21,138 nucleotides of DNA from the UHGV virus genome UHGV-0785298. One strand, given 5' to 3'. A program made the translations under genes and the position numbers. The notes under the pieces are model-generated. The model did not search any database. It saw only the letters and a list, made by a program, of their open reading frames with translations, and was not told where the DNA came from. The first letter of the stretch is position 1, and each line of letters opens with the position of its first letter. Origin of the DNA: a virus. Shown piece by piece: positions 759 to 21,138 of the stretch.

Positions 759-1340
759 TTATAGACCAAATTTGCTACGCCACTTTTCAACCTTGTGTTC
801 AATAGCGTGCTCCACTTTAATGCGAGTGGCCATCAAAGAGGATCCACGGATCGCCCCTTCCCCACACCCCATGCGCGCAACATGCTTGATTAGGTCATTG
901 ACGAGTTGATCCAATCTGTCTTGACTGCGATAAGGCTGGTTGCACAACCGGATAATCCGGCCATGATAATGATGGATAAGATTCAGATGCTTTTGAGGAT
1001 CACGATCAATCAGACGGAACCAGTCTTCTTCCAACAGATTAGAAGAAATATCGTTCACTGTCGCCATGTGGTTGATGACAGAGTCGATCATTTCGGCCTT
1101 GTTCAGAGAGCCGCGCATTTGGACGTCGTCATAATCCATGACGTACAGAAGGTCAATAGCAGAGATAATGACATCAGAAACTTCGCCATTCAACGGCTCG
1201 GAAGATACTATGCCATGAAACACATCAGACAGTTCACAGATCTCTTCACCTAGTTTGTTCAGAACAAACACAGGAGAACGGTCTGGGGTATGAGCAGTAC
1301 AGTCATAAGAAGTGTCGACGATAGTGTGTAGAAATTTCAT
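759..1340 (-). CDS. MazG-like all-alpha nucleoside triphosphate pyrophosphohydrolase (putative)
   Basis: 193-aa ORF with ATG at 1340 overlapping the upstream stop (ATGA). Contains KLGEEICELSDV and NGEVSDVIISAIDLLYV, resembling the two EExxE / E[LV]xD metal-binding helices of MazG/HisE-family NTP pyrophosphatases. Assigned by motif only. Confidence 0.4.
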   Translation of the reverse strand: MKFLHTIVDTSYDCTAHTPDRSPVFVLNKLGEEICELSDVFHGIVSSEPLNGEVSDVIISAIDLLYVMDYDDVQMRGSLNKAEMIDSVINHMATVNDISSNLLEEDWFRLIDRDPQKHLNLIHHYHGRIIRLCNQPYRSQDRLDQLVNDLIKHVARMGCGEGAIRGSSLMATRIKVEHAIEHKVEKWRSKFGL

Positions 1341-4792: not shown

Positions 4793-4816
4793 GAAAAGGA
4801 GGCCGGAGCCTCCTTG
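4793..4816 (-). terminator. intrinsic-terminator-like hairpin (family B)
   Basis: Stem AAGGAGGC / GCCTCCTT with loop CGGA at 4796..4815, immediately downstream of the rIIB stop (4832..4834); the minus-strand U-tract is short (TTTT, partly inside the stem). Confidence 0.45.
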
Positions 4817-4831
4817 GTGGATGGGGTTTGG

Positions 4832-6397: not shown

Positions 6398-6428
6398 CTT
6401 GTAGTTCCCACGTTGGTTAACAGGACTA

Positions 6429-9185
6429 TTATGCCCTGATAATGGAATTTGAAATAACGTCCAAGTAATCCGAAGAATTTTCAATCGGGTTCAGGGCGCT
6501 TGGTTTGTAATTCTCTTTCAAGAACCGGACAACACGATGACGTTCTACGGTCATGCGGTTCGCCTTTTTCGCGTTCCGTGTTGGCGTCTTCAGTAAATCA
6601 AACGGCACGAATCCATGAATCCTCAGAACTTCCGATGCGTGACTGAAGATTTGCAACATGCGTTGTTCAGCGCGGAACACCCTTTCATCCCGCTCATTGG
6701 TGTATAGATTCAGATTCAGAGTGCTGATCGTATCCTGGAAATGTTTGAAGCGGCGAACCTCATGGAGGGAAACACTACGCTTCGACATCGCCTGATAATG
6801 GCGGATAGTTTGTTCGTCCAAGATATCGTCAACATAATCCAGCATTTGGTTATACCGATTAACCAGCTGATTATAACGCCCGTCTTCCCCTTCACCGAAC
6901 GCCTGTTTTACCAGATGACACCCGTATTTCAGGCGATTAGAACCAAGGTGAAGTCTCTGATGAGATTTCAGCAACCGTATCGCGTTGTGGCGTTCCAGCA
7001 TCGGCTTGGCATTCTCCAACATAATCTTCAGGATTTCGTCGATCGGGATGAAGACCTCTGGGAACTTCTTCATCATCGGAACCGATTTGCGACGAGCCAA
7101 GAATATTCTGTCGTGAACGTTGAGCATATCTTTGATGTACACAGGCTTGCTATCTTCATCCGCGTGAACGGCATGTTTGTAGAGAGACTCGCGAATACCC
7201 CGCGCCGCAGCTGTGGTCAACGTTCTGTCCATCACCTGATGGATACACTCATAGCCAGACACCTCAATATAGACGATGCGCTCGCCCTTGTTTATGATAT
7301 CTGAGATCTGGTCGCCCGTCAGTTCTTCATACTGGTATATGTCGAAGTTGCTGCGCGTGAACGGAAACAGGCCAGGGTCTTTGGTGACCGGGGGCGTGAC
7401 ATACGCCAGTTCGTTCATGAACTTAACTTCAGCAGGCTCCAACACCGCACTCAGCCAATCGACGAACTTGTCAGCGAAGCACAGATAATCAACCGTCGTT
7501 TCTTCTTTACCAATCCAAGTTTCAAAGAAATCATAGAGAGCCTGAGAATTCTTGAACGCAGGGTTGTCCTTAGATTGGTTGCGCTTGGTGACATAGGATG
7601 TGTTCGGCTTGGCCACGATGACTATCGTCCCTGTATCTTTCAGCTGCTTGATCTTCAGGTTACGAGCACGAACACTATCTTCGATCACCACAGTAACATG
7701 CTGGCCGCGATCAATCCACTTCTGGATTTCTGAAATGGTCAGGGTACTGGACTCACCCCAGTCATAGAAGATCTCCATAGAGAACGGCGATGACAGCTCA
7801 TTGAACGGCGCGGTATGGTCATAATCGCGATCAATCTCAACAGGCAGCGGGTAACGGTAATATGAATCATGAAAGCGCTTGTCTGCCGGGTATTCCTTTT
7901 CAACCATCTTGCGGAACCCACTGCCGAACATTTCACTCAGTTTTGCCTTCTCCATATACAGGGCAAGAGGACCGCGCTTACACGCCAGCTCTAGGTCACG
8001 CATCTTTTCTGTCAAGATTGCATTGGCGGTGCCCTTAAACTCCTCAGAGAGCGTCTCACGCGTGAATTCGTCATATGAAAGGTCTTCACGCGACGGCGGT
8101 ACGTTCAGCGAGCCGAGTTCGAAGAACGTATAGGACGATGGAAACTTGCTCATGATAGAGGAAGTGTCTGGATCGAGCTGATTCAGGTCAATCGGGTACG
8201 ACACGCCACCCATTACAGCATAATGGGTGTTCCCCTGGCCTTTCGGCTGGATGTACGTGTTGTTGACCTTGAAATCATAACTGATATCTTCCCAGCTGAA
8301 GCGGTATGAAGCGTTCTCAACAATTGGGCGCTGTTCAGGGCGCATAACACGACCAAGACGGACCAGTTCATCGGAGAATGCAGAGAAACGAGCGTTCTTC
8401 ACCGGGATCTTCACCGTCATGCCGTTGAACTCATCGGTGTCTTCCGGCTTAGGATCACGGGTTTCAAGATCTTTGGTGATCAGATCAACAGTCGGGATAC
8501 GCTTGGCATTCAGGTACATCAGGAAGCGATGGAGTTTACCGTCCATGCGGCTTTCCACTGTGAACGAATCCGATACCGCAAATGGTGATTTGGAGCCAAG
8601 ACCGAATGCCCCAATCTGATCATCATCTTCTTCCTTCGTACTGTGGAAGAGAGTGGTATACAACCCAGGCGTACGAATGATTTCACCATCTTCGCGACGG
8701 AACACTAGACCACCATTATAGAACGCAGGCACGCCGATGACCTCAGCTGAGTCAGGGATCTCATCTTCCTTAACCACCATGTTGCCTTCCAGCAGCACCT
8801 CATCTTCCTGCGCTGGGATAGGCTCGCCAATGATCTTCTCAAGTGGCAGACCGATGCCGTAATCACGTATTTCCAGCCATGGTTCAAAGTCATCAGGTAG
8901 ATGCACAACAACCTGCTTACCCTTCGGTGCAAGGTATTTGCTATGGCGGGCAGGAGGCGGAGTGAGAGGCGCGTAGTGGGATGCCATCACACGGTGCATA
9001 CGATCACGCATGCCATGGGAGTCGATGGCGTTACAGACGGTTTCGCGCAGGGCTGCAGCCTCTTTGTAACGATACAATGATGAGAACAGAGTCTCAAACA
9101 TCTTATCGTTCATCTTCACGTTGAACGCCTGCCCCTGAATGGAAGACGACGAGCGGATAAAGTGCTCGGACTTGCGCATTTTCAT
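6429..9185 (-). CDS. rIIA: rIIA protein (GHKL/Bergerat-fold ATPase domain)
   Basis: 918-aa ORF immediately upstream of rIIB. N-terminal Bergerat ATPase motifs: ETVCNAIDS (ExxxNxxD), RDYGIGLP (DxGxG), GAFGLGSKS (G2 box). Size and rIIA-rIIB synteny are as in T4-type phages. Confidence 0.75.
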   Translation of the reverse strand: MKMRKSEHFIRSSSSIQGQAFNVKMNDKMFETLFSSLYRYKEAAALRETVCNAIDSHGMRDRMHRVMASHYAPLTPPPARHSKYLAPKGKQVVVHLPDDFEPWLEIRDYGIGLPLEKIIGEPIPAQEDEVLLEGNMVVKEDEIPDSAEVIGVPAFYNGGLVFRREDGEIIRTPGLYTTLFHSTKEEDDDQIGAFGLGSKSPFAVSDSFTVESRMDGKLHRFLMYLNAKRIPTVDLITKDLETRDPKPEDTDEFNGMTVKIPVKNARFSAFSDELVRLGRVMRPEQRPIVENASYRFSWEDISYDFKVNNTYIQPKGQGNTHYAVMGGVSYPIDLNQLDPDTSSIMSKFPSSYTFFELGSLNVPPSREDLSYDEFTRETLSEEFKGTANAILTEKMRDLELACKRGPLALYMEKAKLSEMFGSGFRKMVEKEYPADKRFHDSYYRYPLPVEIDRDYDHTAPFNELSSPFSMEIFYDWGESSTLTISEIQKWIDRGQHVTVVIEDSVRARNLKIKQLKDTGTIVIVAKPNTSYVTKRNQSKDNPAFKNSQALYDFFETWIGKEETTVDYLCFADKFVDWLSAVLEPAEVKFMNELAYVTPPVTKDPGLFPFTRSNFDIYQYEELTGDQISDIINKGERIVYIEVSGYECIHQVMDRTLTTAAARGIRESLYKHAVHADEDSKPVYIKDMLNVHDRIFLARRKSVPMMKKFPEVFIPIDEILKIMLENAKPMLERHNAIRLLKSHQRLHLGSNRLKYGCHLVKQAFGEGEDGRYNQLVNRYNQMLDYVDDILDEQTIRHYQAMSKRSVSLHEVRRFKHFQDTISTLNLNLYTNERDERVFRAEQRMLQIFSHASEVLRIHGFVPFDLLKTPTRNAKKANRMTVERHRVVRFLKENYKPSALNPIENSSDYLDVISNSIIRA

Positions 9186-11550: not shown

Positions 11551-12666
11551 TTAAAAATTAAACGGATAACGACGACGGCCACCATTGTACTCCATTCGCT
11601 GTAATATGAAAATTGCGGTGAACGGTAGACAGCCCAGTAGAACAACAATCACAACTTCCCAGGTCTTGAGTTCCCGCCACTTCAGGTACTCCATTTCCTT
11701 CATCTCAACGCGGTTGTAGCCTTTGGTGATGTTAGCGACAACATCAGCCATGACACCGACACCCATGTCGTGGCCTGTGAGAGCCATGCCATTGCGAGAA
11801 TGGAGTTCACGGTTATGCATACCATCAGCGAACGAAGTGCTCTTGCCCCAGTTGATCTTCAGGTCTTTGTTGATGTCGGTCACGACGATAACGTCGTTCT
11901 TTTTACCACCATCCCAAGCATAGACCAAGCCCTGGAAGTATTCAACTGGCTGACCGGAAGTCACAACCCAGACGATGTTCACCTGCTTGGCTGCGCCCAG
12001 CTTCTTCAGGACATCGTTCAGATAGTCGTTCCAGTATGTGGTCGGTAACGCCAGACCAGACACATTCAGTACACGAGTGACGCGATAGTAGTCATAGACC
12101 TCAGGGTACTTGGGAATCTTGTCTTTGAAGCGCTCAGCAAACTGCTGGTCCGAGCGAGAGAACAAAGAGTCCTTGTTACCCAGCACATAGTTCATGTAGG
12201 AATGCTCACGAGCTGCGGGTTCGCCGATCTGAACCTGCGCCCAGCGCGGGGGCTGACCAAGACCGCGACGATCAATGCGGTCAATCGTCAGATTACCGAC
12301 AGTCGTCAACACATCCCAGTCCACGTCATATGAATGCTCATAACATGTACTGCAATGGCGAGTGCGGGTACAGGACTTGCTGCTGCCGGAGCCGGAGCAT
12401 GATGTGGTGTAGTAGCAGTTGCATTCATATGAATGCTCACAGCTCACCTTATTCCGCTCCTTTGCAGTGACGTACCCGTTCAGGATCTCAACATCCCCTG
12501 AACTGCCAAGGGAGAACGCAGCATAAGTCCCCGCCTGAATCAGACAGGATAGCACCACTACAATCGCGGTCGCTATCAGAGTCTCTTTCGGCTCATGGGT
12601 CTTGCGGTGGTAGGCCACAAACAAAATAGCCAGTACCAATGGCACACCAAACAGGAGGTAGATCAT
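11551..12666 (-). CDS. membrane protein with Cys/His-rich segment and TPM-like domain (putative LemA partner)
   Basis: 371 aa: N-terminal TM helices, a Cys-rich block (CEHSYECNCYYTTSCSGSGSSKSCTRTRHCSTCYEHSY), then IVWVVTSGQPVEYFQGLVYAWDGGKKNDVIVVTDINKDLKINWG resembling the TPM-domain core (VVVT...W.IG.KGKDNGVLLLV...RKVRIEVGYG), and a C-terminal TM helix. The ATG overlaps the upstream stop (ATGA). Confidence 0.45.
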   Translation of the reverse strand: MIYLLFGVPLVLAILFVAYHRKTHEPKETLIATAIVVVLSCLIQAGTYAAFSLGSSGDVEILNGYVTAKERNKVSCEHSYECNCYYTTSCSGSGSSKSCTRTRHCSTCYEHSYDVDWDVLTTVGNLTIDRIDRRGLGQPPRWAQVQIGEPAAREHSYMNYVLGNKDSLFSRSDQQFAERFKDKIPKYPEVYDYYRVTRVLNVSGLALPTTYWNDYLNDVLKKLGAAKQVNIVWVVTSGQPVEYFQGLVYAWDGGKKNDVIVVTDINKDLKINWGKSTSFADGMHNRELHSRNGMALTGHDMGVGVMADVVANITKGYNRVEMKEMEYLKWRELKTWEVVIVVLLGCLPFTAIFILQRMEYNGGRRRYPFNF

Positions 12667-13597: not shown

Positions 13598-14833
13598 TCA
13601 GCGTTTCAAGAGTGCCATGAGGTTGACGCTGCTGGACTTCGACTTGTCCTCAACCTTGCGCACAGGCATCTTCAGGTTCGTACATACCTCGGATGGTTCC
13701 CAGCGCGTACCCTTTTGCAGGTGCCAGATATGCAGAGGAACACCAGTCTCAAAGAACACAGGCATCTTCCACTTCTGGACGCCTGGAACGTGCCCTGCAG
13801 GAGCCTTTTCGCACAACAGGGTATCTGGTAGCCAGAGCGAACGGGCTTCCCAGAGCGCTGCGCAGGAGTATTCAGGCCAGACGCGTTCCATGTAGTCTAT
13901 CTCATCCCAGGTACGCTCTGCGTCCCACCCGATGTAACGGGTATTCTTCAGTCGGAAGAATTTCTTCAGCCAACAAGCACCGGAGGTTTCAAAGTTCAGG
14001 CGGTTGATGAACGTCAGGTGCCCGAACTCAGCCACACAATCTTGGAACGCCTGCTCAAGGTCGGCCTCAAGGATGTCACACTCTTCATCCGTGATAGGAC
14101 AACCGTTGATCTTTTTCTTCCCGTGTTTAGTCACCCAATCGTCACGGTTGGACAAGAACGCCGCTCCATTACGGTTGGACTCGCTTCCATCACGATCACG
14201 CAACATGAAGCCAGGGACGTCAATGGTGTATTCGTTCCCGAAGACCATGTTCAGGGCTTCCAGGAAGTTCCAGGCGCTCAGGCGACCGAAGTATTTCCAG
14301 GACATCGCCGTGTCCCACAGCTGGGTGAATTGTTCTGTCTTATCGATACACACCAACATCCCACGGAAAGCGTCATATTGAGTACGGCCAGCCAGCCAGT
14401 CAATATAGGACTGAACACACGGAATCATCTTGGACTTGCGGTAGCGACAGTCGGTATCGAATCGCATGCGATCAAAGTTCAGATTATACCAATCAGAGAA
14501 GCGCTGCATCTCTTCCTTAGACTGAGGCGGCACAGGGAACTCACTGTAGATAGTCCACGGCCCGACAGCGTTATAGCAACAACCCCACAGGAATGCCATC
14601 CAGATCTTGCGCTCGACTTTCTGTTCGAGGCTGATACCTTCAGTGACTTCAATCGCATAGTCCATCAGACGCATCTGCTGGTTGTGCTCTTCTGTGTAGG
14701 ACAGCGCCTCCACCCAAGCCTTGAGCAAGTACATGCGATTCTCAGGCTTGCGATAATCAACAGCCAGGTCAATCGGGTACTTCCATTCAGTCGGAGGCGT
14801 ATAGCCCGTCGGCATTTTAGATAGATGCGTCAT
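13598..14833 (-). CDS. hypothetical protein, Trp/Cys-rich, enzyme-like
   Basis: 411-aa ORF, ATG at 14833 with GAGGAAG upstream; it overlaps the end of the upstream gene by 17 nt. No motif recognised by eye. Confidence 0.6.
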   Translation of the reverse strand: MTHLSKMPTGYTPPTEWKYPIDLAVDYRKPENRMYLLKAWVEALSYTEEHNQQMRLMDYAIEVTEGISLEQKVERKIWMAFLWGCCYNAVGPWTIYSEFPVPPQSKEEMQRFSDWYNLNFDRMRFDTDCRYRKSKMIPCVQSYIDWLAGRTQYDAFRGMLVCIDKTEQFTQLWDTAMSWKYFGRLSAWNFLEALNMVFGNEYTIDVPGFMLRDRDGSESNRNGAAFLSNRDDWVTKHGKKKINGCPITDEECDILEADLEQAFQDCVAEFGHLTFINRLNFETSGACWLKKFFRLKNTRYIGWDAERTWDEIDYMERVWPEYSCAALWEARSLWLPDTLLCEKAPAGHVPGVQKWKMPVFFETGVPLHIWHLQKGTRWEPSEVCTNLKMPVRKVEDKSKSSSVNLMALLKR

Positions 14834-15173
14834 CTTTCGCTTCCTCTTCAGGAGCCAGCTGAATATCTTCCGGCTTCACGAACCCCATCGGACGTTCCCA
14901 CATATCGACAAAGCGACGGTCAGCGGTCACGAACCACAGACGGGCTGCGGTGTGGGTCTTACTCGAGATGAACATCTGAGCGTTCGTCTGGGTACGGAAC
15001 GGAGCAGCCTGCAACCACTTGCCAAAGTCTTTGGACGACGGATTGGCATTCAGCTGGAACTGAGGGATGACGCAGTTCTTTTCAGGAATCAGACGCACAG
15101 CCGTAATGTGCTTGGCGTTTCCGGTGTAGTCAATTGCGACAGCCACAGCATCGCGAGGGATTTGAATTTTCAT
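14817..15173 (-). CDS. hypothetical protein
   Basis: The ORF track extends to 15308, but that would overlap the upstream small membrane gene. The ATG at 15173 (MKIQIPRD...) forms an ATGA overlap with that gene's stop and has AAGGA upstream; 118 aa. Confidence 0.5.
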   Translation of the reverse strand: MKIQIPRDAVAVAIDYTGNAKHITAVRLIPEKNCVIPQFQLNANPSSKDFGKWLQAAPFRTQTNAQMFISSKTHTAARLWFVTADRRFVDMWERPMGFVKPEDIQLAPEEEAKDDASI

Positions 15174-15367
15174 TTTGGTTCCTTGAATATTTTGTAACCA
15201 GCAGCGCCGATAGACATCACCGCGCCAATACAGTACATCACAGTCACGTTCAACTTCTCTGAGGTTGTTAAGTCCAGAGGGGTGAAATGATAGGCTAGGG
15301 CAGTACACATTGAAACGGCTGCCATAACCAGACCAATGAACAACAGATAATTAGACAACCGTTTCAT
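15170..15367 (-). CDS. small membrane protein (two predicted TM helices)
   Basis: ATG at 15367, 2 nt after the stop of the 531-aa gene (the track start at 15373 is a GTG); hydrophobic stretches LLFIGLVMAAVSMCTALAY and VMYCIGAVMSIGAAGY. Confidence 0.5.
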   Translation of the reverse strand: MKRLSNYLLFIGLVMAAVSMCTALAYHFTPLDLTTSEKLNVTVMYCIGAVMSIGAAGYKIFKEPK

Positions 15368-15369
15368 GA

Positions 15370-16965
15370 TCACCCCTTCTTCATCAGGTCAAGGAGAGAG
15401 CGCGACGCTGCCTTCGTTGCTTCTGGCTGGGCGCTCGCCTTGGTTTTAGTTTTGGATGCCTTCTGTGGCTTCTCAGGGACTCTGTGTGCCAAAGGGTTGC
15501 TACCTCTTATCTTGCGCAGCATGGGATACTGCTCGCAATATTTATGGAATTCATCTTTTGAAAGATTAAGCCCAACAAAGTCAATAACAAAGTCACCGAT
15601 AACCGCCAACGGGGCGTCAAAATATTTCAGGATGTTCCAGCCGACGGCCTTCACACCGTTTCCATTAGCAGCCTTGGCAATGAAGAGTTCATGATTGGAA
15701 TCCGGTTCCAGCTCATACCCAATAGCAGAATATTCGCCCATGATCTTGACATGATCCTTGGTGTATTGATCGTTTCGTCCCCAGCCAGTGTCCTTCGCCG
15801 CCTTACCAGAACGACCGATGATACGCTTGTCGTAATCTTCCCGTGCCTGATAGATGAATGAGATGAATGCCATGTTGTTGAACCCCAAGTCCTGGTGTAC
15901 GAACTTAGGACGCCACCGATGGCTCTGCATCATAGGTTCCCCTTCCAATATGATGGTAGAATCCTTGTATTTCCCTTTGATGTATTTCACCAATGAATTG
16001 GCCATCTCAGAAGTCTTGAGAGTGGAGTGGATGAAGTCCATGGAAGTCCAAGAAGCCAGATCTGATTTGTTGGACACTGTATACTTGCCGATGAACACCA
16101 GATTGATTTCCTTGAACCAAAACCCAACCTGGATCATCTTCTTGTCGAATTCGTATTCTATGAGTTCTGGCTCATATTTGGTTCTCAACCACTCAAGGAA
16201 TTGAACGACACGAGTCCCCTTTCCCGTTCCACTTGTCCCGCGAATAACGACAATACCCGGCGTCACGCTAGAATTTATCATAGTCATAAAACGTTTGTCC
16301 TCTTTGGGAATCCAACCATCTTTAAACATGGCGATCATATTACGAAAGACGCTCTCATCGCCCTTTAGATTACGATACTCTGTGTCCAGTAGTTTAGAAT
16401 ACCACAATCCGATAGATTTGTAACCACATCCTCGTTTTGGCATACAGGTAGGATTCACAGTACCGCCGTTGTTCACCCATCTATCATAGATCCTACGGGC
16501 GTCCTTCCAAACCCACCAATAACCATTTGAAACCATGAATGGGTAGGGAGAATTACCCCTGTTCTCCTTTATTGATTTTATTACACGTTCCCGGTATTCT
16601 GGATCATCCCAAGGATTTATACCAGATTTGTATTTCTTGCCAGTCCTAGCCAACGCCGCCTTAAATTGGTTTGGTATGATAGAATTGTCTCCTCCCAATT
16701 TCAGGTTCAGGCATAATGGGTCCAACAGTAACTCTTCCGTAACAATAATAGACTCCAGGTCGGATGCCTCCAACCTGGTTTCAAACTTTTCTATTATCGT
16801 CTTTAAGAATTCAGAAGCGGGGTGAGATTCCAACAACCTTTTGATGATAACACCAGAACCCATATAGGGGTCTTGTTCGGGGGTGCATGAACAAGACCGA
16901 ATCCCGACGTAGAATCTCCCAGTTGGGACATGAGTTATCCTATATGTGTAATGGTAGCGAGCCAT
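15370..16965 (-). CDS. GIY-YIG nuclease domain fused to a P-loop NTPase/kinase-like domain
   Basis: 531 aa. N-terminus YHYTYRITHVPTGRFYVGIRS...DPYMGSG fits the GIY-(10-11 aa)-YIG spacing and the 'YMGSG' signature of Seg-like phage GIY-YIG nucleases. Mid-protein Walker A IVVIRGTSGTGKGTRVV and a Walker-B-like DSTIILEGEP. Lys-rich C-terminal tail. The ATG overlaps the upstream stop (TAATG). Confidence 0.55.
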   Translation of the reverse strand: MARYHYTYRITHVPTGRFYVGIRSCSCTPEQDPYMGSGVIIKRLLESHPASEFLKTIIEKFETRLEASDLESIIVTEELLLDPLCLNLKLGGDNSIIPNQFKAALARTGKKYKSGINPWDDPEYRERVIKSIKENRGNSPYPFMVSNGYWWVWKDARRIYDRWVNNGGTVNPTCMPKRGCGYKSIGLWYSKLLDTEYRNLKGDESVFRNMIAMFKDGWIPKEDKRFMTMINSSVTPGIVVIRGTSGTGKGTRVVQFLEWLRTKYEPELIEYEFDKKMIQVGFWFKEINLVFIGKYTVSNKSDLASWTSMDFIHSTLKTSEMANSLVKYIKGKYKDSTIILEGEPMMQSHRWRPKFVHQDLGFNNMAFISFIYQAREDYDKRIIGRSGKAAKDTGWGRNDQYTKDHVKIMGEYSAIGYELEPDSNHELFIAKAANGNGVKAVGWNILKYFDAPLAVIGDFVIDFVGLNLSKDEFHKYCEQYPMLRKIRGSNPLAHRVPEKPQKASKTKTKASAQPEATKAASRSLLDLMKKG

Positions 16966-17270
16966 TACACAGCATCCTCAATACGCCAGCTCACGCCGCC
17001 CAGCCAAGGTGCCCAGAACACAGCAACCTGCGGACGACCGTTTTCTTCAAACTTAACTTTATACTGGTCGTCGAAGTTATAGAAGATTTCATCCGATTCA
17101 GAGCGCTGGCCGATCTTCACCAGTACATCATGAAGAGCCTTGGCTGCGCCGATAGGAGTCGGAGTCTCCTGCTGGCGAATGAAGTTGTTCACATGGTTAA
17201 TCACGCCATCCATGTCGCTATCACCGGAACGCTTGTCGGGGATTTCCCCGAACTTATTCTGATCTTGCAC
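16965..17270 (-). CDS. hypothetical protein
   Basis: 101-aa ORF starting at GTG 17270, with a strong AGGAGGA Shine-Dalgarno 4-5 nt upstream and 9 nt after the HAD gene stop. Confidence 0.45.
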   Translation of the reverse strand: MQDQNKFGEIPDKRSGDSDMDGVINHVNNFIRQQETPTPIGAAKALHDVLVKIGQRSESDEIFYNFDDQYKVKFEENGRPQVAVFWAPWLGGVSWRIEDAV

Positions 17271-17279
17271 GATGTCCTC

Positions 17280-18059
17280 CTATCGGACGTATTGATAATG
17301 ACTAATCAGGCGGTTCACCACTTCGACAATATTGCGGTTCAGGAAGTCGAAGTGATTCTGACCTTCTACTGGTTTAATATAAAGCATGTCTTCCGAATTC
17401 GAAAGATCCAGTTTTTCATAATTACCCTGAGGAACAAAGATGACAAAGATGTTGTTCAGACCACACGGCTCGACATACTTCGGATTGTCATCAATCAGGA
17501 CATCGCCAGCCAGCAGATGCTTTTCGTCGGTGCTGACAAACCCGTTGAAGATACCAGGGAACTTATCATAGACAAACTGACGCTTGCTGCGCTCGTGTTC
17601 CGGCTCGCACTTCGACACCGCGATGAATTCAACATTGTCGAAATCTTCAAGCAAGATATCCTTCAGATTTACCAGGAACTCGTAAGCACCGGGGAGCGGG
17701 TTCATCTTGGCGTACAAGTCAGGGCGACGCCACCAATCCATAGGATCGTTACCGCTTGGCACACGTTGTTTGTGCATCCCCAATTGGACTTCATGGTATA
17801 GCCACGCCGGATGCGCACGTTCACGCATCAGAATAGCCAGGTCGCCAGCATGGGACATATAACACTCTTTGGTAATCGGCTGGAACTGGTATGACTTATG
17901 TTCCCCCGTAGCGATAGCAGCGGCGGCGATGTTCTCTTCGTTGAACCACTGCACCCAAGGGGAGAGGCTGTCGACCAACGTCAGGTCAACATCCACGAGG
18001 ACGCGATACAGACCACCGACCTTTGATTTCATATCATAGATACAAACCAGGTTGTTCAT
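17280..18059 (-). CDS. HAD-superfamily phosphatase, 5'(3')-deoxyribonucleotidase-like (NT5C-like)
   Basis: 259 aa. HAD motif I VLVDVDLTLVD (DxDxT); C-terminal KFPGIF...DEKHLLAGDVLIDDNPKY matches the NT5C motif III/IV region (K...D.LIDD.P); PLPGAYEFLVNL is also NT5C-like. The ATG overlaps the upstream stop (ATGA). Confidence 0.6.
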   Translation of the reverse strand: MNNLVCIYDMKSKVGGLYRVLVDVDLTLVDSLSPWVQWFNEENIAAAAIATGEHKSYQFQPITKECYMSHAGDLAILMRERAHPAWLYHEVQLGMHKQRVPSGNDPMDWWRRPDLYAKMNPLPGAYEFLVNLKDILLEDFDNVEFIAVSKCEPEHERSKRQFVYDKFPGIFNGFVSTDEKHLLAGDVLIDDNPKYVEPCGLNNIFVIFVPQGNYEKLDLSNSEDMLYIKPVEGQNHFDFLNRNIVEVVNRLISHYQYVR

Positions 18060-18397
18060 TTGTCTTCCTCAACTTTATCGTAGCCTGTAGCAACACACTG
18101 TTCTTCGGTACAATCTGCATACAGAACGACGGAGGCCTGCTTCACGTAGGTGATGCAGTGGTAAGTTTCGTCTTCCTGGACGGAATCGTCATAGTTGCAG
18201 ACAGTTTGGAGCGGACCCGGAGTAGTGTTGTCCAGTGCTGCATGCGCCTTGATGGTGTCTTCCATCTTGGACACGGCCTGCTCATTGGTGAACGTCGGCG
18301 CGTCAAGGTCTACAGTAGATGCAACGTCCAGAAGGGTGGAACACGCAGTGGTAGAGAAAGCCAGAGCGCACACCAGAAGAATCTTATTGAGTTTCAT
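18056..18397 (-). CDS. putative lipoprotein
   Basis: ATG at 18397 with AGGTGA upstream (the track start at 18406 is a GTG). Signal peptide with lipobox-like LVCALAFSTTAC; the mature part carries four further Cys. Confidence 0.45.
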   Translation of the reverse strand: MKLNKILLVCALAFSTTACSTLLDVASTVDLDAPTFTNEQAVSKMEDTIKAHAALDNTTPGPLQTVCNYDDSVQEDETYHCITYVKQASVVLYADCTEEQCVATGYDKVEEDK

Positions 18398-18426
18398 TTC
18401 AATCACCTGTTTGTCAAAGGGTTAAC

Positions 18427-18446
18427 AGGGGGAATTATATCCCCCT
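18427..18446 (-). promoter_or_regulatory. GC hairpin with a TATAAT loop between the polymerase and lipoprotein genes
   Basis: Stem AGGGGGA / TCCCCCT (7 bp); the loop reads TATAAT on the minus strand; TTCAATAAA lies just upstream on the minus strand, as in the family A hairpins. No U-tract follows on the minus strand, so it is not a canonical terminator for the coding strand. Confidence 0.3.
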
Positions 18447-18459
18447 TTGGTTTATTGAA

Positions 18460-21078
18460 TCAACCTTTCTTCTTTTGCATCATGGCAAGAAGGTTCACAC
18501 GGCGCTTGTGTGACCAGCCGACCACGTCGAGGATAGACTGAATCGGATCAATGAAGGACTTCTCAAAGGCCGCCTGATAATCCACCCATTTGCCCAGACC
18601 AAGCTCCTCAGGGAAGAACTCAGGATATGCGAAGTAATTCTGGCCGAATGGGTTGCCTGGCTTCAACAACACCATCTGTACCTTATCACCCGACTCGATC
18701 ATCGGTAGACCCAGATCTTCGTTCTTCTCAACCAGACGGTTGTAGCCCACACACGCCTTGGCAGCAAAATGAGCACCAGAGATGAACGATCCGTCAGCAG
18801 CCACACACTTCTCTATGTCGGACACGCCGGAAGCCTTGGCGATATCGTCTACAGAGAGTTTCATGTACTCCTCTTTGTACTGGGAGATGAGCGTCTGTAC
18901 TTCCTCTTCGGTGCCGAGTAGGATCTTCTCATAACACTTGACAAGACGCTCACGACACCATTCCGGCGTGGTGGACTTGCGGGCTTCCAGACCTTTGAAC
19001 TTAATCTTCGGCTTCTCGTACTTGATACCCTCACTGTCGTACACGGCCATGGCATACATCTTCTTGGCTCGCCAGACAGCGGCTGACGCAATGACCTCAC
19101 GCTCCCATACCATGCGCTGTTCAAATCCGTTCATGGTGTTACACAGAAGCTGTGCCCACTCATTGGTCTTCGGCTGGTAGTTGTCTTTGATCCATTGGTC
19201 GATATTATCAACCATAGCATGATGGTCAGTAACATCAGGCCACAACTGCTTGACAAGACGCTCAATGCAGATGTAGTTGGAGTCGGTATCCCCTGCGATG
19301 ACGAAGTCCTGGCCTGTTGTACCACACAGCTTGTTCAGATAGTCATCAGTGTAACGCTTGTTCCACTTGTTGATCAGCTGACCGGATGTGGTGATGGCTT
19401 CGGCAATGTTGAGGTTGAAGTACTCTTTGAACCAGACGTTTGAGATCGCGCCATAACCTGCGTTCATCAAGATCTTCAGACCTTGCTGTAGGGTGTCTTG
19501 AGCAACGCCCAGATCTTCCCACTTCTTCATCACTTCGGTCAGGGCATCAAGATCAATGTTCTTGTGCTCTTCATACCACTCTGGGTCATAGTAGCGAGAC
19601 TTCATGGCAGACTCAAGATGGAAGTCGCCCTTCGACATCTCTTTACACCAGCCAGCCCACTGCTCATACTTCAGACCCTTGGCCTTCTCTACTTTACGGT
19701 CGCTGTAGATACCACGCATGATTTCAGACAGGAACGACATCTTCTCGTTGCTGAAGAATTGAACGTTCGGCGTGAACGACACGTTGTAGCGGCGCAGGGT
19801 TTCAAAGTGGAACTCACCCAGGGCAACCAACTCATCAACAACCTGCAGGCGTTCGTCAATCGCACGCAACAGCTTGTCGTGAAGGGCTTTCATCAACCGA
19901 CGTTTGTGCATCGGCGTTGCCATGTTATTCATCTGAGCAGCCAGCTCTTCACACATAGCCTCAATAATCTCGCGGCGCTGGTGTTTGTCGCCAACGATAG
20001 TCTCTGGACCGAGGTTGTACTGCTGAATGATGTGAGGATACAGGGAGTTCAAATCTTCCGAGAAGACCCAGAAGTAGATTCCTGGTGTCACATCCATGAC
20101 GTATGCACCCTCAAAGTCGGTCGGACCATCGTATACACGCTGGATCTTAGGCACTATCCCCTTCTCATACAGACGATAGTAGCACATGGCCAGCCACGGA
20201 GACACAGTGCCCAGACCGTCTTCATAGTTGGACTTGGTGCGGTACGCAAGGACGAACATCAGCTGGAGCAGGCGCAGCTTCTGTTCAAGTCGCCATACCA
20301 GCTTAACGTCTTTGATACCATATCGGGTGTGTTTGCAGTAGTCGTTGAAGTACAGATCAAAGAGCGACTTGCTCTCACTGTAGTCCATCTTCTTCTCACC
20401 CAGCTCACAATACGCAATCCAGTCAAGAGAGTAGCGTTCACGGGTGGTGTACGTGTGTTTCTTGTAGATCTGCATATAATCGAGCATAGGACAGCCCACG
20501 AACTGATACGTCGTGATATCGCCCTTCTTATCGCGAATGATACGCTTCTTAATGATACCCCAAGGACTGAGGCGCGACGTTTCAGCCTCACCCAGAACCT
20601 GATTCATGCGCTCAACAAGATAAGGGCTATCAAACGTCTCAATGTTCCAGCCTGTCCAGCCATCAAACTGACGCTGCGACCAGAAGTCTAGGAAAGATCG
20701 CAGCAGATCCTGCTCGGTGACAAACTCCTTGTACTCCACCTCAAGTCCACCGATCTCCGCGTCTTCTGGATCGTATCTGAACTTCGCACGATCCTTCGCG
20801 CACGGCATACCCCACACCATGAACTTATTGGTCGCCATGTCCTGAAGCTGGATCAGGGTAATGGGGAACGCCGCATTCATGTCTTGGGTGATCTTGCCGT
20901 TGCTGTCAATGATAGGGAACTTATCAGTGACGTTGTTGCTGATAAAGGAACTGGGAAAGTGCTCACGGATGAAGTCATGGTTGGCCAGTACCTGCTGATG
21001 GAAGCGGCGAATGCGCGCCTCATTCCCTTTGAACGTCTGCTGCTCAATGGTTGGGTGAGGGAATGGACCTTTGGTCAT
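18460..21078 (-). CDS. DNA polymerase, family B (T4 gp43-like)
   Basis: 872-aa ORF. Polymerase motifs DLNSLYPHII (A), KILMNAGYGAISN (B), AGDTDS (C). Exonuclease motifs GWNIETFDSPY (Exo II) and YGIKDVKLV (Exo III). C-terminal MVLLKPGNPFGQNYFAYP matches the T4/RB69 gp43 tail as recalled. The ATG at 21078 forms an ATGA overlap with the stop of an upstream ORF. Confidence 0.95.
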   Translation of the reverse strand: MTKGPFPHPTIEQQTFKGNEARIRRFHQQVLANHDFIREHFPSSFISNNVTDKFPIIDSNGKITQDMNAAFPITLIQLQDMATNKFMVWGMPCAKDRAKFRYDPEDAEIGGLEVEYKEFVTEQDLLRSFLDFWSQRQFDGWTGWNIETFDSPYLVERMNQVLGEAETSRLSPWGIIKKRIIRDKKGDITTYQFVGCPMLDYMQIYKKHTYTTRERYSLDWIAYCELGEKKMDYSESKSLFDLYFNDYCKHTRYGIKDVKLVWRLEQKLRLLQLMFVLAYRTKSNYEDGLGTVSPWLAMCYYRLYEKGIVPKIQRVYDGPTDFEGAYVMDVTPGIYFWVFSEDLNSLYPHIIQQYNLGPETIVGDKHQRREIIEAMCEELAAQMNNMATPMHKRRLMKALHDKLLRAIDERLQVVDELVALGEFHFETLRRYNVSFTPNVQFFSNEKMSFLSEIMRGIYSDRKVEKAKGLKYEQWAGWCKEMSKGDFHLESAMKSRYYDPEWYEEHKNIDLDALTEVMKKWEDLGVAQDTLQQGLKILMNAGYGAISNVWFKEYFNLNIAEAITTSGQLINKWNKRYTDDYLNKLCGTTGQDFVIAGDTDSNYICIERLVKQLWPDVTDHHAMVDNIDQWIKDNYQPKTNEWAQLLCNTMNGFEQRMVWEREVIASAAVWRAKKMYAMAVYDSEGIKYEKPKIKFKGLEARKSTTPEWCRERLVKCYEKILLGTEEEVQTLISQYKEEYMKLSVDDIAKASGVSDIEKCVAADGSFISGAHFAAKACVGYNRLVEKNEDLGLPMIESGDKVQMVLLKPGNPFGQNYFAYPEFFPEELGLGKWVDYQAAFEKSFIDPIQSILDVVGWSHKRRVNLLAMMQKKKG

Positions 21079-21138
21079 CTTTCCATCTTTCCACCCGGCG
21101 GAGACGTCGGGTCTGGTCGGCGTCTCTCAAGGCACACA
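21075..21138 (-). CDS. 3' end of an upstream gene (partial, unknown function)
   Basis: The frame one nucleotide offset from the polymerase frame is open from the window edge and reads ...VCLERRRPDPTSPPGGKMER-stop, with the TGA sharing nucleotides with the polymerase ATG (ATGA). Only 20 codons are visible. Confidence 0.35.
   Translation of the reverse strand, partial: VCLERRRPDPTSPPGGKMER

What the first reader, a model, noticed from the sequence alone, without database searches (positions are those of the whole stretch)
13598..18059. Nucleotide-chemistry gene set next to the polymerase: candidate DNA-modification or nucleic-acid repair module
Within 4.5 kb, all co-oriented and coupled, lie a HAD NT5C-like deoxyribonucleotidase (17280..18059), a P-loop kinase-like domain fused to a nuclease (15370..16965) and a 411-aa Trp/Cys-rich enzyme-like protein of unknown family (13598..14833). 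A MazG-like pyrophosphohydrolase sits elsewhere in the window (759..1340). P-loop kinase plus HAD phosphatase is the domain pair of T4 polynucleotide kinase (here split into separate genes), and kinases and pyrophosphatases also feature in phage thymidine-hypermodification pathways. Combined with the polymerase Exo I observation, this could be an uncharacterised DNA-modification or end-healing system.
Basis: inference. Interest (0 to 1): 0.5.

Follow-up and report, generated by a model that had tools for sequence, protein, structure and literature searches.

The report
Known phage thymidine-hypermodification genes, kinase fused to endonuclease
These genes are this phage's copy of the already characterised ViI-type pathway that turns part of its DNA thymidines into 5-(2-aminoethoxy)methyl-deoxyuridine, so the finding is real but ordinary; the one unusual point is that the DNA kinase is fused to a mobile homing endonuclease.

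Summary
All three ORFs exist at the stated coordinates on the minus strand, in a tightly coupled gene string downstream of a family B DNA polymerase. The window comes from an Ackermannviridae (ViI-like, Aglimvirinae) phage.

The "unknown" 411-aa protein is an amino acid:DNA transferase (Pfam PF18724, E 7e-60). It is 89% identical, without gaps, to ViI gp247, the experimentally shown serine:DNA transferase.

The C-terminal 300 aa of the 531-aa protein are a 5-hmdU DNA kinase (PF18747, 505 bits), at the position of ViI gp243. Its N-terminal 226 aa are a SegB-like GIY-YIG homing endonuclease.

Gene order from polymerase to transferase is the same as in ViI. So this is the known post-replicative thymidine-hypermodification pathway (Iyer 2013; Lee 2018, 2021), not an uncharacterised or end-healing system.

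The NT5C-like HAD phosphatase keeps its catalytic motifs and is syntenic family-wide, but its role is only inferred (nucleotide-pool control).

The endonuclease::kinase segment (15496-16962) is a discrete cassette. It has no DNA homology to endonuclease-free alleles, both halves are under purifying selection, and it has moved laterally between phages.

Interest is low for the module and modest for the cassette.

The parts
13598..14833 (-). Amino acid:DNA transferase (AADT / aGPT-Pplase clade 2), orthologue of ViI gp247 (serine:DNA transferase). Predicted to replace the phosphate of 5-PmdU in DNA with L-serine, giving O-serinyl-thymidine.
   Evidence: Pfam PF18724 ADDT, E 7.3e-60, residues 49-292. 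phrog_3271, E 2e-231. 89% identity over 411/411 aa without gaps to ViI gp247. The catalytic-type motif FETSGACW (E282, T283, C287) is identical in ViI gp247 and corresponds to E243/T244/C247 of PaMx11 gp46 (PMC11472151, PMC8989533).
14817..15173 (-). Conserved 118-aa protein of unknown function (ViI orf00245 position). The 163-aa GTG-start ORF in the raw list is probably over-extended.
   Evidence: phrog_4163, E 6e-64, matches residues 46-160 of the long ORF. Same position in ViI, LIMEstone1, AV101 and KpS110. No Pfam, NCBIfam or PADLOC hit.
15170..15373 (-). Conserved 67-aa predicted membrane protein (ViI orf00244 position), function unknown.
   Evidence: phrog_4514, E 1.5e-34. Hydrophobic sequence. 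Syntenic in ViI and relatives.
15370..16287 (-). 5-hmdU DNA kinase domain ('kinase 2', HMUD2), residues 227-531 of the 531-aa ORF. Predicted to phosphorylate the 5-hydroxymethyl group of 5-hmdU in DNA to 5-PmdU. May also be translated alone from the internal ATG at 16287.
   Evidence: Pfam PF18747 HMUD2, E 7.7e-152, 505 bits, profile positions 2-298 of 298. Walker A GTSGTGKGT at 243-251. 47% identity to ViI gp243, which phosphorylates 5-hmdU DNA in vitro (PMC8989533). dN/dS 0.04-0.12. Internal ATG preceded by GAGGA + 10 nt in all six phages compared.
16288..16965 (-). SegB-like GIY-YIG homing-endonuclease domain (residues 1-226), translationally fused to the kinase. Equivalent to LIMEstone1 F-LimXI.
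   Evidence: phrog_314 and other homing-endonuclease PHROGs. PADLOC HEase, E 9e-9. tblastn to T4 SegB, 35% identity, E 2e-8. YTYRI (6-10) and FYVG (18-21) motifs. Absent from ViI. dN/dS 0.09-0.19. No Pfam GIY-YIG hit at E<=0.1.
15496..16962 (.). Mobile cassette: endonuclease plus about 260 codons of a divergent kinase allele. Inserted exactly at the resident kinase start codon; the left boundary lies inside the conserved C-terminal tail of the kinase.
   Evidence: No blastn homology to AV101, XF4 or ViI between 15496 and 16962, while the flanks are 96-97% identical to AV101. The upstream context attGAGGAtgctg..taATG is the same as that of the ViI kinase. LIMEstone1 vs PMBT18 is 96-100% identical inside the cassette but 64-88% in the flanks.
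15489..16100 (.). Mosaic patch inside the kinase body that differs from all database phages.
   Evidence: Window vs PC3 is 96-100% identical everywhere else but 73-86% here. The best nucleotide identity in 50,697 phage records is 83.7%.
16965..17270 (-). DUF7254 protein (101 aa), conserved between the HAD gene and the kinase. Function unknown.
   Evidence: Pfam PF23912, E 2.6e-51. Syntenic in ViI orf00240. Annotated 'putative thioredoxin' in LIMEstone1 but has no cysteine. The AF2 single-sequence model was poor, pLDDT 59.7.
17280..18059 (-). NT5C-like HAD phosphatase (5'(3')-deoxyribonucleotidase family) with an insertion of about 65 aa. Inferred nucleotide-pool enzyme (for example a dTMP/dUMP nucleotidase); role not shown.
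   Evidence: Pfam PF06941, E 9.5e-9, 35.8 bits against a cut-off of 24.8, residues 109-198. PDB 3bwv, E 0.002. Motif I DVDLT (23-27) aligns with DMDGV of mdN, and motif IV LIDDNPK (188-194) aligns with LIDDRP. 76% identity to ViI orf00239. The polymerase / NT5C-like / HMUD2 order is also seen in Vibrio phage GR28A.
18056..18406 (-). DUF7292 signal-peptide/lipoprotein-like protein, first gene after the polymerase. Function unknown; probably not part of the modification chemistry.
   Evidence: Pfam PF23964, E 1.6e-53. N-terminal hydrophobic segment ending in ...TTAC. Syntenic with ViI orf00237.
18434..18463 (-). Sigma-70-like promoter candidate in the polymerase/DUF7292 intergenic gap. A consensus match only.
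   Evidence: TTGATT-18-TATAAT, 10 of 12 matches.
759..1340 (-). MazG-like all-alpha NTP pyrophosphohydrolase candidate, 12 kb from the module. Its link to the pathway is not shown.
   Evidence: phrog_1247, E 4.7e-34. EExxE at 31-36 and ExxD at 53-57. Weak PDB match to MazZ 7ody, E 0.68, across exactly these motifs. No Pfam or NCBIfam hit.

Best explanation
The region holds the polymerase-proximal half of the ViI-type thymidine-hypermodification pathway of an Ackermannviridae phage.

Mechanism established in ViI and transferred here by orthology:
1. The phage replicates with 5-hmdUTP, so 5-hmdU enters the DNA.
2. The 5-hmdU DNA kinase (15370-16287) uses ATP to phosphorylate the hydroxymethyl group in duplex DNA, giving 5-PmdU.
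3. The amino acid:DNA transferase (13598-14833) attacks C6 with its cysteine, expels phosphate, and adds the side-chain oxygen of L-serine, giving O-serinyl-thymidine.
4. A PLP decarboxylase encoded outside this window (gp226 type) removes CO2 to give 5-(2-aminoethoxy)methyl-dU (5-NeOmdU). In ViI this replaces about 40% of T and blocks most type II restriction enzymes.

Inferred steps:
- The NT5C-like HAD phosphatase trims the pyrimidine deoxynucleotide pool (for example dTMP) in favour of 5-hmdU.
- The kinase is made both as a 531-aa fusion and from the internal start at M227.

The N-terminal GIY-YIG domain is a selfish homing endonuclease. It inserted at the kinase start codon and has dragged a divergent kinase allele with it as a mobile cassette.
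For: - The window is 95-96% identical to Aglimvirinae phages and 89% identical to Dickeya LIMEstone1.
- Gene order polymerase / DUF7292 / NT5C-like / DUF7254 / kinase / 67 aa / about 118 aa / 411 aa is the same as ViI orf236 to orf247.
- The 411-aa protein matches PF18724 at E 7e-60 and is 89% identical to ViI gp247. gp247 transfers serine to 5-PmdU DNA, and its Cys and Glu are essential (PMC8989533). The E282/T283/C287 motif is present (PMC11472151).
- The kinase domain matches PF18747 over the full profile at 505 bits and has an intact Walker A motif. ViI gp243 phosphorylates 5-hmdU DNA (PMC8989533).
- The PLP decarboxylase gp226 is about 91% conserved in the nearest relatives: AV101, CAU_YEP3, LHE287 and all Dickeya and Enterobacter records.
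- Lee 2018 lists LIMEstone, AG3 and SKML-39 in the ViI-like group predicted to carry 5-NeOmdU (PMC5889632). A review states that the genes are conserved across the family (PMC11721090).
- Cassette evidence: sharp homology breaks at 15496 and 16962; three locus states among relatives; dN/dS 0.04-0.19 in both halves with the ORF continuous across dS > 1.7; lateral transfer between LIMEstone1 and PMBT18.
Against: - There are no chemical data for this phage or for any Aglimvirinae member.
- The dUMP hydroxymethylase, kinase 1 (gp67), gp160 and gp226 orthologues lie outside the window, so the pathway was not seen whole here.
- The kinase domain is only 47% identical to the assayed ViI gp243, and no one has assayed a fused form.
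- Nothing ties the NT5C-like, DUF7254, 67-aa, 118-aa or MazG-like proteins to the chemistry. The ViI reconstitution needed only gp67, gp160, gp226, gp243 and gp247 (PMC5889632).
- The serine specificity of the transferase is assumed from 89% identity; the substrate-binding residues are not mapped.
- The Pfam GIY-YIG model did not hit the endonuclease half.
Confidence: 0.9

Rival explanations
1. This is an end-healing / nucleic-acid repair module like T4 polynucleotide kinase-phosphatase, split into a P-loop kinase gene and a HAD phosphatase gene.
For: Only the generic domain pairing of a P-loop kinase and a DxDxT HAD phosphatase within 2 kb.
Against: - The kinase matches the 5-hmdU DNA kinase family over its full length (505 bits). 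No Pnk-family model was reported for it at E<=0.1; AAA_33 appeared only as a sub-threshold hit for ViI gp67, the paralogous kinase.
- The HAD protein matches NT5C mononucleotidases, not PNK 3'-phosphatases.
- No ligase is in the operon.
- The orthologous ViI kinase acts on the base, not on DNA ends (PMC8989533).
Confidence: 0.02
2. The pathway is the same, but the final base differs from ViI's. The transferase or downstream enzymes would use another nucleophile, so this phage carries a thymidine derivative other than 5-NeOmdU.
For: Family members use glycine (M6 gp51, PaMx11 gp46), putrescine (PhiW-14 gp109) or serine (ViI gp247), so specificity is plastic (PMC8989533). 11% of the residues differ from gp247. 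The kinase allele here is divergent.
Against: 89% ungapped identity to gp247, with the active-site motif and its neighbours identical. The gp226 decarboxylase is conserved at about 91% in the closest relatives. The same 301-Da nucleoside was found in ViI, CBA6, CBA120 and even the distant Vibrio phage 1.255.O (PMC5889632).
Confidence: 0.06
3. The 531-aa ORF is just a homing endonuclease, as annotated in LIMEstone1, PC3 and others. Its kinase half would be a decaying remnant, with kinase 1 (gp67 type) doing the work.
For: Database annotation as 'homing endonuclease F-LimXI' (PMC3296691). A paralogous kinase exists in the family (PMC5889632), so loss could be tolerated.
Against: The kinase half matches the whole HMUD2 profile (2-298 of 298) at 505 bits with an intact Walker A motif. 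Its dN/dS is 0.04-0.12 at dS up to more than 2. No frameshift or stop occurs in six phages.
Confidence: 0.03

Closest known systems
Salmonella phage ViI (Kuttervirus) 5-NeOmdU pathway: gp243 (5-hmdU DNA kinase 2) and gp247 (serine:DNA transferase), with gp67, gp160 and gp226 elsewhere in the genome (Lee et al. 2018 PNAS; Lee et al. 2021 NAR)
   Same: Same virus family and the same gene order from the polymerase to the transferase. The transferase is 89% identical, the NT5C-like protein 76% and the polymerase 86%. Same Pfam families.
   Different: The kinase body is only 47% identical and is preceded by a fused 226-aa GIY-YIG endonuclease that ViI lacks. No chemistry has been done on this phage.
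Dickeya phage LIMEstone1 ORF186 'F-LimXI' (Adriaenssens et al. 2012)
   Same: The same 531-aa endonuclease::kinase fusion, 91% identical, in the same position.
   Different: It was described only as a free-standing SegB-like homing endonuclease whose 'downstream gene' is ORF187; the kinase half was not recognised (PMC3296691). The window carries a 612-bp patch in the kinase that is at most 84% identical to LIMEstone1 and to every other record.
PaMx11 gp46 (PUGT, PDB 8Z2M/8Z2N) and M6 gp51, glycine:DNA transferases
   Same: Same AADT family. The E-T-x(2,3)-C catalytic motif and the 'FG' DNA-kinking helix are recognisable (PMC11472151).
   Different: About 25% identity. The window protein is 120 aa longer, is predicted to use serine O rather than glycine N, and has no sequence-level PDB hit.
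T4 Seg-type free-standing GIY-YIG homing endonucleases (SegB, SegD)
   Same: N-terminal GIY-YIG module, about 35% identity to SegB. Presence/absence polymorphism at an intergenic site, and mosaic flanks typical of co-conversion.
   Different: The reading frame runs on into the downstream host gene, giving a fusion kept across dS > 1.7. Other relatives (AV101, XF4) carry an unrelated SegD-like endonuclease as a separate gene at the same site.
T4 polynucleotide kinase/phosphatase (Pnk)
   Same: Only the generic pairing of a P-loop kinase fold and a HAD phosphatase fold.
   Different: Different families. The substrate of the orthologous kinase is a base hydroxymethyl group, not a 5'-OH end; the HAD protein is mononucleotidase-type; there is no ligase partner (PMC8989533).

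Membership tests
5-hmdU DNA kinase, clade 2 (Pfam PF18747 HMUD2; ViI gp243 type) | Full-length match to the family profile above the curated cut-off | tested here: met
   505.1 bits against a cut-off of 25; residues 236-530 cover profile positions 2-298 of 298.
5-hmdU DNA kinase, clade 2 (Pfam PF18747 HMUD2; ViI gp243 type) | P-loop (Walker A) NTP-binding motif | tested here: met
   GTSGTGKGT at residues 243-251, aligned with GTSGTGKGT of ViI gp243.
5-hmdU DNA kinase, clade 2 (Pfam PF18747 HMUD2; ViI gp243 type) | Same genomic position as the assayed enzyme and co-occurrence with an AADT | tested here: met
   Same slot between DUF7254 and the 67-aa gene as ViI gp243, with the AADT two genes downstream.
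5-hmdU DNA kinase, clade 2 (Pfam PF18747 HMUD2; ViI gp243 type) | ATP-dependent phosphorylation of 5-hmdU in DNA to 5-PmdU | not testable with these tools
   Shown for ViI gp243 (PMC8989533). The window domain is 47% identical to it.
Amino acid:DNA transferase (AADT; aGPT-Pplase clade 2; Pfam PF18724) | Match to the family profile above the curated cut-off | tested here: met
   203 bits against a cut-off of 26.2, E 7.3e-60. aGPT-Pplase3 scores only 14.4 bits, below its cut-off.
Amino acid:DNA transferase (AADT; aGPT-Pplase clade 2; Pfam PF18724) | Essential cysteine nucleophile with a neighbouring glutamate | tested here: met
   FETSGACW, with E282, T283 and C287, is identical in ViI gp247. 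It corresponds by inspection to VETILCKW (E243, T244, C247) of PaMx11 gp46. MAFFT placed this stretch imperfectly, so the correspondence is by eye (PMC11472151, PMC8989533).
Amino acid:DNA transferase (AADT; aGPT-Pplase clade 2; Pfam PF18724) | Transfer of L-serine (through its oxygen) to 5-PmdU DNA | not testable with these tools
   Shown for ViI gp247, which is 89% identical (PMC8989533).
NT5C 5'(3')-deoxyribonucleotidase (HAD superfamily) | Profile match above the cut-off | tested here: met
   35.8 bits against 24.8, but only residues 109-198 are covered. PDB 3bwv, E 0.002.
NT5C 5'(3')-deoxyribonucleotidase (HAD superfamily) | HAD motif I DxDx(T/V) and motif IV acidic pair | tested here: met
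   DVDLT at 23-27 aligns with DMDGV/DMDEV of mdN and 3bwv. LIDDNPK at 188-194 aligns with LIDDRP/LIDDNPK.
NT5C 5'(3')-deoxyribonucleotidase (HAD superfamily) | Dephosphorylation of deoxyribonucleoside monophosphates, and which ones | not testable with these tools
   No assay exists for any Ackermannviridae orthologue that I could find. The proposed role in excluding dTMP is inference from the older literature on hmdU-phage dTMPases (own knowledge).
GIY-YIG homing endonuclease (Seg type) | GIY-YIG catalytic module recognised by profile | tested here: inconclusive
   No Pfam PF01541 hit at E<=0.1. Homing-endonuclease profiles do match: phrog_314 E 2e-23, PADLOC HEase E 9e-9. T4 SegB matches by tblastn at E 2e-8. 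YTY...FYVG motifs lie at 6-21, with R23, E77/E78 and N87 candidates identified by eye only.
GIY-YIG homing endonuclease (Seg type) | Presence/absence polymorphism at a fixed site, with recombinant flanks | tested here: met
   Absent in ViI, replaced by a SegD-like gene in AV101 and XF4, and present as a fusion in about 27-29 records. Sharp homology breaks. The cassette is 96-100% identical between phages whose flanks are 64-88% identical.
GIY-YIG homing endonuclease (Seg type) | Site-specific cleavage of the endonuclease-free allele | not testable with these tools
   No assay is available.
T4 polynucleotide kinase/3'-phosphatase end-healing system | Kinase and phosphatase domains of the Pnk families, plus a partner ligase | tested here: not met
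   Pfam, PHROG and NCBIfam scans give HMUD2 and NT5C instead. No ligase is among the operon's genes.
MazG-type all-alpha NTP pyrophosphohydrolase (ORF 759..1340) | Profile match and the EExxE...ExxD metal-binding motifs | tested here: inconclusive
   phrog_1247, E 4.7e-34, and both motifs are present. No Pfam or NCBIfam hit, and the PDB match to MazZ has E 0.68.

The most novel reading that the evidence does not exclude
The GIY-YIG::5-hmdU-kinase reading frame may be more than an annotation curiosity. It could be a maintained bifunctional protein and mobile cassette: a homing endonuclease that has captured the DNA-hypermodification kinase as fused cargo. It would spread a divergent kinase allele between Ackermannviridae genera, and it may use the kinase's affinity for freshly replicated 5-hmdU DNA to reach, or to discriminate, the genomes of co-infecting relatives.

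A second, less likely reading concerns the uncharacterised co-transcribed genes (the NT5C-like HAD protein with its 65-aa insertion, DUF7254, and the 67-aa and 118-aa proteins). They could supply still-unknown steps, such as converting 5-hmdU to T or choosing which ~40% of sites are modified.
Probability: 0.15. Interest if true: 0.5.

Novelty: already known. Interest (0 to 1): 0.2.

Why it matters
The practical value is correct annotation. Most database relatives label these genes 'hypothetical protein', 'guanylate kinase', 'homing endonuclease' or 'thioredoxin'. In fact they mark a phage whose DNA is predicted to carry 5-NeOmdU. Such DNA resists most type II restriction enzymes in vitro (71% for ViI, PMC6449724), and the modification may affect restriction-based handling of the DNA, which matters for Ackermannviridae phages used in biocontrol.

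The endonuclease::kinase cassette is a small but clean example of a selfish element reshuffling a DNA-modification gene. It could be used to ask whether homing endonucleases work on hypermodified or on 5-hmdU DNA.

Tried and rejected
- **PDB sequence searches.** The 411-aa protein (whole and core) and the 531-aa protein gave no hit even at E<=10. The link to the solved PaMx11 gp46 structure therefore rests on the shared Pfam family and a motif comparison by eye.
- **MAFFT alignment with gp46.** It misplaced the catalytic stretch by a few columns.
- **NCBIfam.** No meaningful hit for any module protein; the only matches were three far-sub-threshold ones for the 67-aa ORF.
- **PADLOC.** Only homing-endonuclease models matched.
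- **Rfam and tRNA scans of the window.** Both empty.
- **Antisense ORFs of 304 and 268 aa.** No family; rejected as spurious.
- **AlphaFold2 on DUF7254 from a single sequence.** pLDDT 59.7, too poor for a fold search, so none was run.
- **EcoSal review (PMC11163837).** Not held.
- **Literature search for 5-HMUDK plus GIY-YIG.** No description of the fusion.
- **Pnk / end-healing model.** Considered and rejected.
- **Kinase half as a pseudogene.** Considered and rejected on dN/dS and profile coverage.
- **Large protein-database searches.** Not spent, because Pfam plus 89% identity to an assayed enzyme already settled the family question.

Full report
**What is in the sequence**

All sizeable genes of the 21-kb window lie on the minus strand. 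Downstream of a family B DNA polymerase ORF (18460..21078) comes a tightly packed string of genes:
- a DUF7292 signal-peptide protein (18056..18406);
- a 259-aa NT5C-like HAD protein (17280..18059);
- a 101-aa DUF7254 protein (16965..17270);
- a 531-aa ORF (15370..16965);
- a 67-aa membrane protein (15170..15373);
- a protein of about 118 aa (14817..15173);
- a 411-aa protein (13598..14833).

Start/stop overlaps are 1-17 nt, apart from one 9-nt gap. So is the Trp/Cys richness of the 411-aa protein: 20 W and 12 C. The long antisense ORFs match no protein family. The window has no Rfam or tRNA hit.

**Where the window comes from**

The 5.5-kb region is 95-96% identical to Aglimvirinae (Ackermannviridae) phages such as Salmonella phage vB_CECAV_050, Escherichia phages PC3/PH4 and Enterobacter phage fGh-Ecl02. 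It is 89% identical to Dickeya phage LIMEstone1, and it matches 279 ViI-like phage records in all. Gene order is the same as in the type phage ViI from orf00236 (polymerase) to orf00247.

**What the two key enzymes are**

*The 411-aa protein.* It matches Pfam PF18724, 'amino acid:DNA transferase', at E 7.3e-60. It is 89% identical over all 411 residues, without a gap, to ViI gp247. Purified gp247 transfers L-serine to 5-phosphomethyl-dU in DNA to give O-serinyl-thymidine, and loses activity when its conserved cysteine or the neighbouring glutamate is changed to alanine (PMC8989533). The corresponding stretch here, FETSGACW (E282, T283, C287), is identical in gp247. By inspection it matches VETILCKW (E243, T244, C247) of the crystallised glycine transferase PaMx11 gp46, where C247 is proposed to attack C6 of the base (PMC11472151).

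*The 531-aa ORF.* Its C-terminal 300 residues match PF18747, '5-hmdU DNA kinase 2', over the complete profile at 505 bits. They have a Walker A motif, GTSGTGKGT, and occupy the slot of ViI gp243. gp243 phosphorylates 5-hmdU in DNA (PMC8989533).

*The rest of the pathway.* The next enzyme, the PLP-dependent decarboxylase gp226, is not in the window. It is conserved at about 91% in the nearest relatives. ViI's dUMP hydroxymethylase (annotated thyA), dNMP kinase, pyrophosphohydrolase and kinase 1 (gp67, PF18748) cluster elsewhere in that genome.

*Literature.* Lee et al. 2018 found the 301-Da nucleoside 5-NeOmdU replacing about 40% of T in ViI, CBA6, CBA120 and a Vibrio relative. They listed LIMEstone, AG3 and SKML-39 among the phages expected to carry it (PMC5889632). 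A 2024 review says the genes are conserved throughout the family (PMC11721090).

The module is therefore a known, biochemically reconstituted DNA-hypermodification pathway. It is neither an uncharacterised system nor a Pnk-like end-healing system. No Pnk-family, PNK-phosphatase or ligase signal was found.

**The HAD and MazG-like proteins**

The 259-aa protein passes the Pfam NT5C threshold (35.8 against 24.8 bits), though only over residues 109-198. In alignments with mitochondrial deoxyribonucleotidase and PDB 3bwv it keeps HAD motif I (DVDLT, 23-27) and motif IV (LIDDNPK, 188-194), with about 65 extra residues between them. It is 76% identical to ViI orf00239. An NT5C-like gene also sits between the polymerase and the HMUD2 kinase in a distant Vibrio Campanilevirus.

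Its role is not established. ViI reconstitution in lysates needed only gp67, gp160, gp226, gp243 and gp247 (PMC5889632). My inference is a nucleotide-pool enzyme, for example a dTMP nucleotidase. This rests on older biochemistry of hmdU phages that encode dTMP nucleotidases, which is my own knowledge rather than a tool result.

The 193-aa ORF at 759..1340 is plausibly MazG-like. It matches PHROG 1247 at E 5e-34, carries EExxE and ExxD motifs, and aligns weakly with MazZ. It has no Pfam or NCBIfam hit, and it lies 12 kb away beyond rIIA/rIIB and structural genes. Its membership of the pathway is unsupported.

**The 'nuclease' half and the cassette**

Residues 1-226 of the 531-aa ORF match homing-endonuclease profiles (phrog_314, PADLOC HEase). 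They resemble T4 SegB at 35% identity and carry YTY...FYVG motifs. The Pfam GIY-YIG model itself did not hit.

ViI has no such domain: its kinase is 304 aa. AV101 and XF4 carry an unrelated SegD-like GIY-YIG gene as a separate ORF at the same site, followed by a ViI-type kinase. LIMEstone1 (as 'F-LimXI', 91% identical), CAU_YEP3, KpS110, PMBT18 and PC3 have the same fusion as the window.

At the DNA level, window 15496-16962 has no homology to AV101, XF4 or ViI, while the flanks are 96-97% identical to AV101. The right edge is exactly the kinase start codon, and the upstream GAGGA context is shared with ViI. The left edge lies in the conserved lysine-rich C-terminal tail. Across the replaced part the kinase is only 47-48% identical to the ViI/AV101 type.

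In the phage database the kinase domain is bimodal: 29 records at >=80% identity and 322 below 60%. The endonuclease domain is found at >=80% in 27 records.

Both halves are under purifying selection: dN/dS is 0.09-0.19 for the endonuclease and 0.04-0.12 for the kinase. The frame is uninterrupted in six phages, including KpS110 at dS > 1.7.

LIMEstone1 and Salmonella phage PMBT18 are 96-100% identical inside the cassette but 64-88% in the flanks. This shows recent lateral movement.

An internal ATG (M227, 16287) is preceded by GAGGA plus 10 nt. That matches the Shine-Dalgarno pattern of the neighbouring genes and is conserved in all six phages. The kinase may therefore also be made on its own; this is inference.

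The LIMEstone1 paper described ORF186 only as a free-standing endonuclease (PMC3296691), and I found no paper describing the fusion.

The window also has its own 612-bp patch in the kinase body (15489-16100). It is 73-86% identical to PC3, which is otherwise 96-100% identical, and at most 83.7% identical to any phage record. This points to an unsampled donor.

**Verdict**

The most likely mechanism runs as follows: 5-hmdU is incorporated, kinase 2 phosphorylates it to 5-PmdU, and the transferase adds serine through a cysteine-C6 adduct. Decarboxylation to 5-NeOmdU then follows by an enzyme encoded outside the window. The phosphorylation, serine-transfer and decarboxylation steps are shown in ViI and transferred here by orthology; 5-hmdU incorporation during replication is the proposed, not demonstrated, first step for ViI (PMC6449724). 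None was tested on this phage.

Novelty: already known. The endonuclease::kinase cassette is a modestly interesting, apparently undescribed detail. Overall interest is 0.2.

Noticed in passing
window 18460-21138 (- strand): The polymerase ORF starts at the equivalent of ViI residue 128. Homology continues 16 codons further upstream (..SAGWKDGKM.. against ViI ..AGWRDGEM..) and then hits a stop codon. The gene is therefore probably split by an intron or homing-endonuclease insertion, as in LIMEstone1 (I-LimII/III) and PC3. The N-terminal exon lies beyond the window end.
   Followed up: partly
window about 20920-20960 (- strand), polymerase residues ~43-55: Where the Exo I DxE motif of T4/RB69-type polymerases is expected (about 70 residues before Exo II, GWNIETFDSPY), the sequence reads SSFISNNVTDKFP with no Asp/Glu pair. 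ViI has the same stretch. HMMER aligns RB69 polymerase only from residue 113 on, so the placement is by eye. Exo II and Exo III look intact. This appears to be a family-wide trait rather than a peculiarity of this window.
   Followed up: partly
window 16965-17270 (- strand): The DUF7254 protein is annotated 'putative thioredoxin' in LIMEstone1, JA15, PP35 and CAU_YEP3, but it contains no cysteine. That annotation cannot be right in the redox sense.
   Followed up: partly
L002 (LIMEstone1) vs L007 (PMBT18), equivalent to window 15295-16885: The endonuclease::kinase cassette is 96-100% identical between a Dickeya phage and a Salmonella phage whose flanking genes are only 64-88% identical. This is a recent inter-genus transfer.
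   Followed up: yes
L003 (AV101) 4803-5489 and L008 (XF4) 1813-2499: A different, SegD-like GIY-YIG endonuclease (Pfam GIY-YIG, E 5.5e-8) occupies the same DUF7254/kinase junction as a separate gene, overlapping the kinase start by 8 nt. This junction is a hot spot for independent endonuclease insertions. XF4's kinase is mislabelled 'F-LimXI'.
   Followed up: partly
window 11551-12666 (- strand): A 371-aa membrane protein (phrog_2087; ViI orf00251, labelled 'host lysis protein') has a dense Cys/His-rich stretch (CEHSYECNCYYTTSCSGSGSSKSCTRTRHCSTCYEHSYD) and no Pfam family.
   Followed up: no
window 4832-9185 (- strand): rIIB-like (550 aa, with an N-terminal HTH) and rIIA-like (918 aa) genes lie between the MazG-like ORF and the modification module. 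Neither matches any rII-family Pfam model: rIIA has no Pfam hit at all, and rIIB matches only N-terminal HTH models.
   Followed up: no
L009 (Vibrio phage GR28A) 2450-3253: This HMUD2 kinase (237 bits) is annotated 'GIY-YIG domain-containing protein' although it shows only the kinase domain. This is another mislabel in the family.
   Followed up: no
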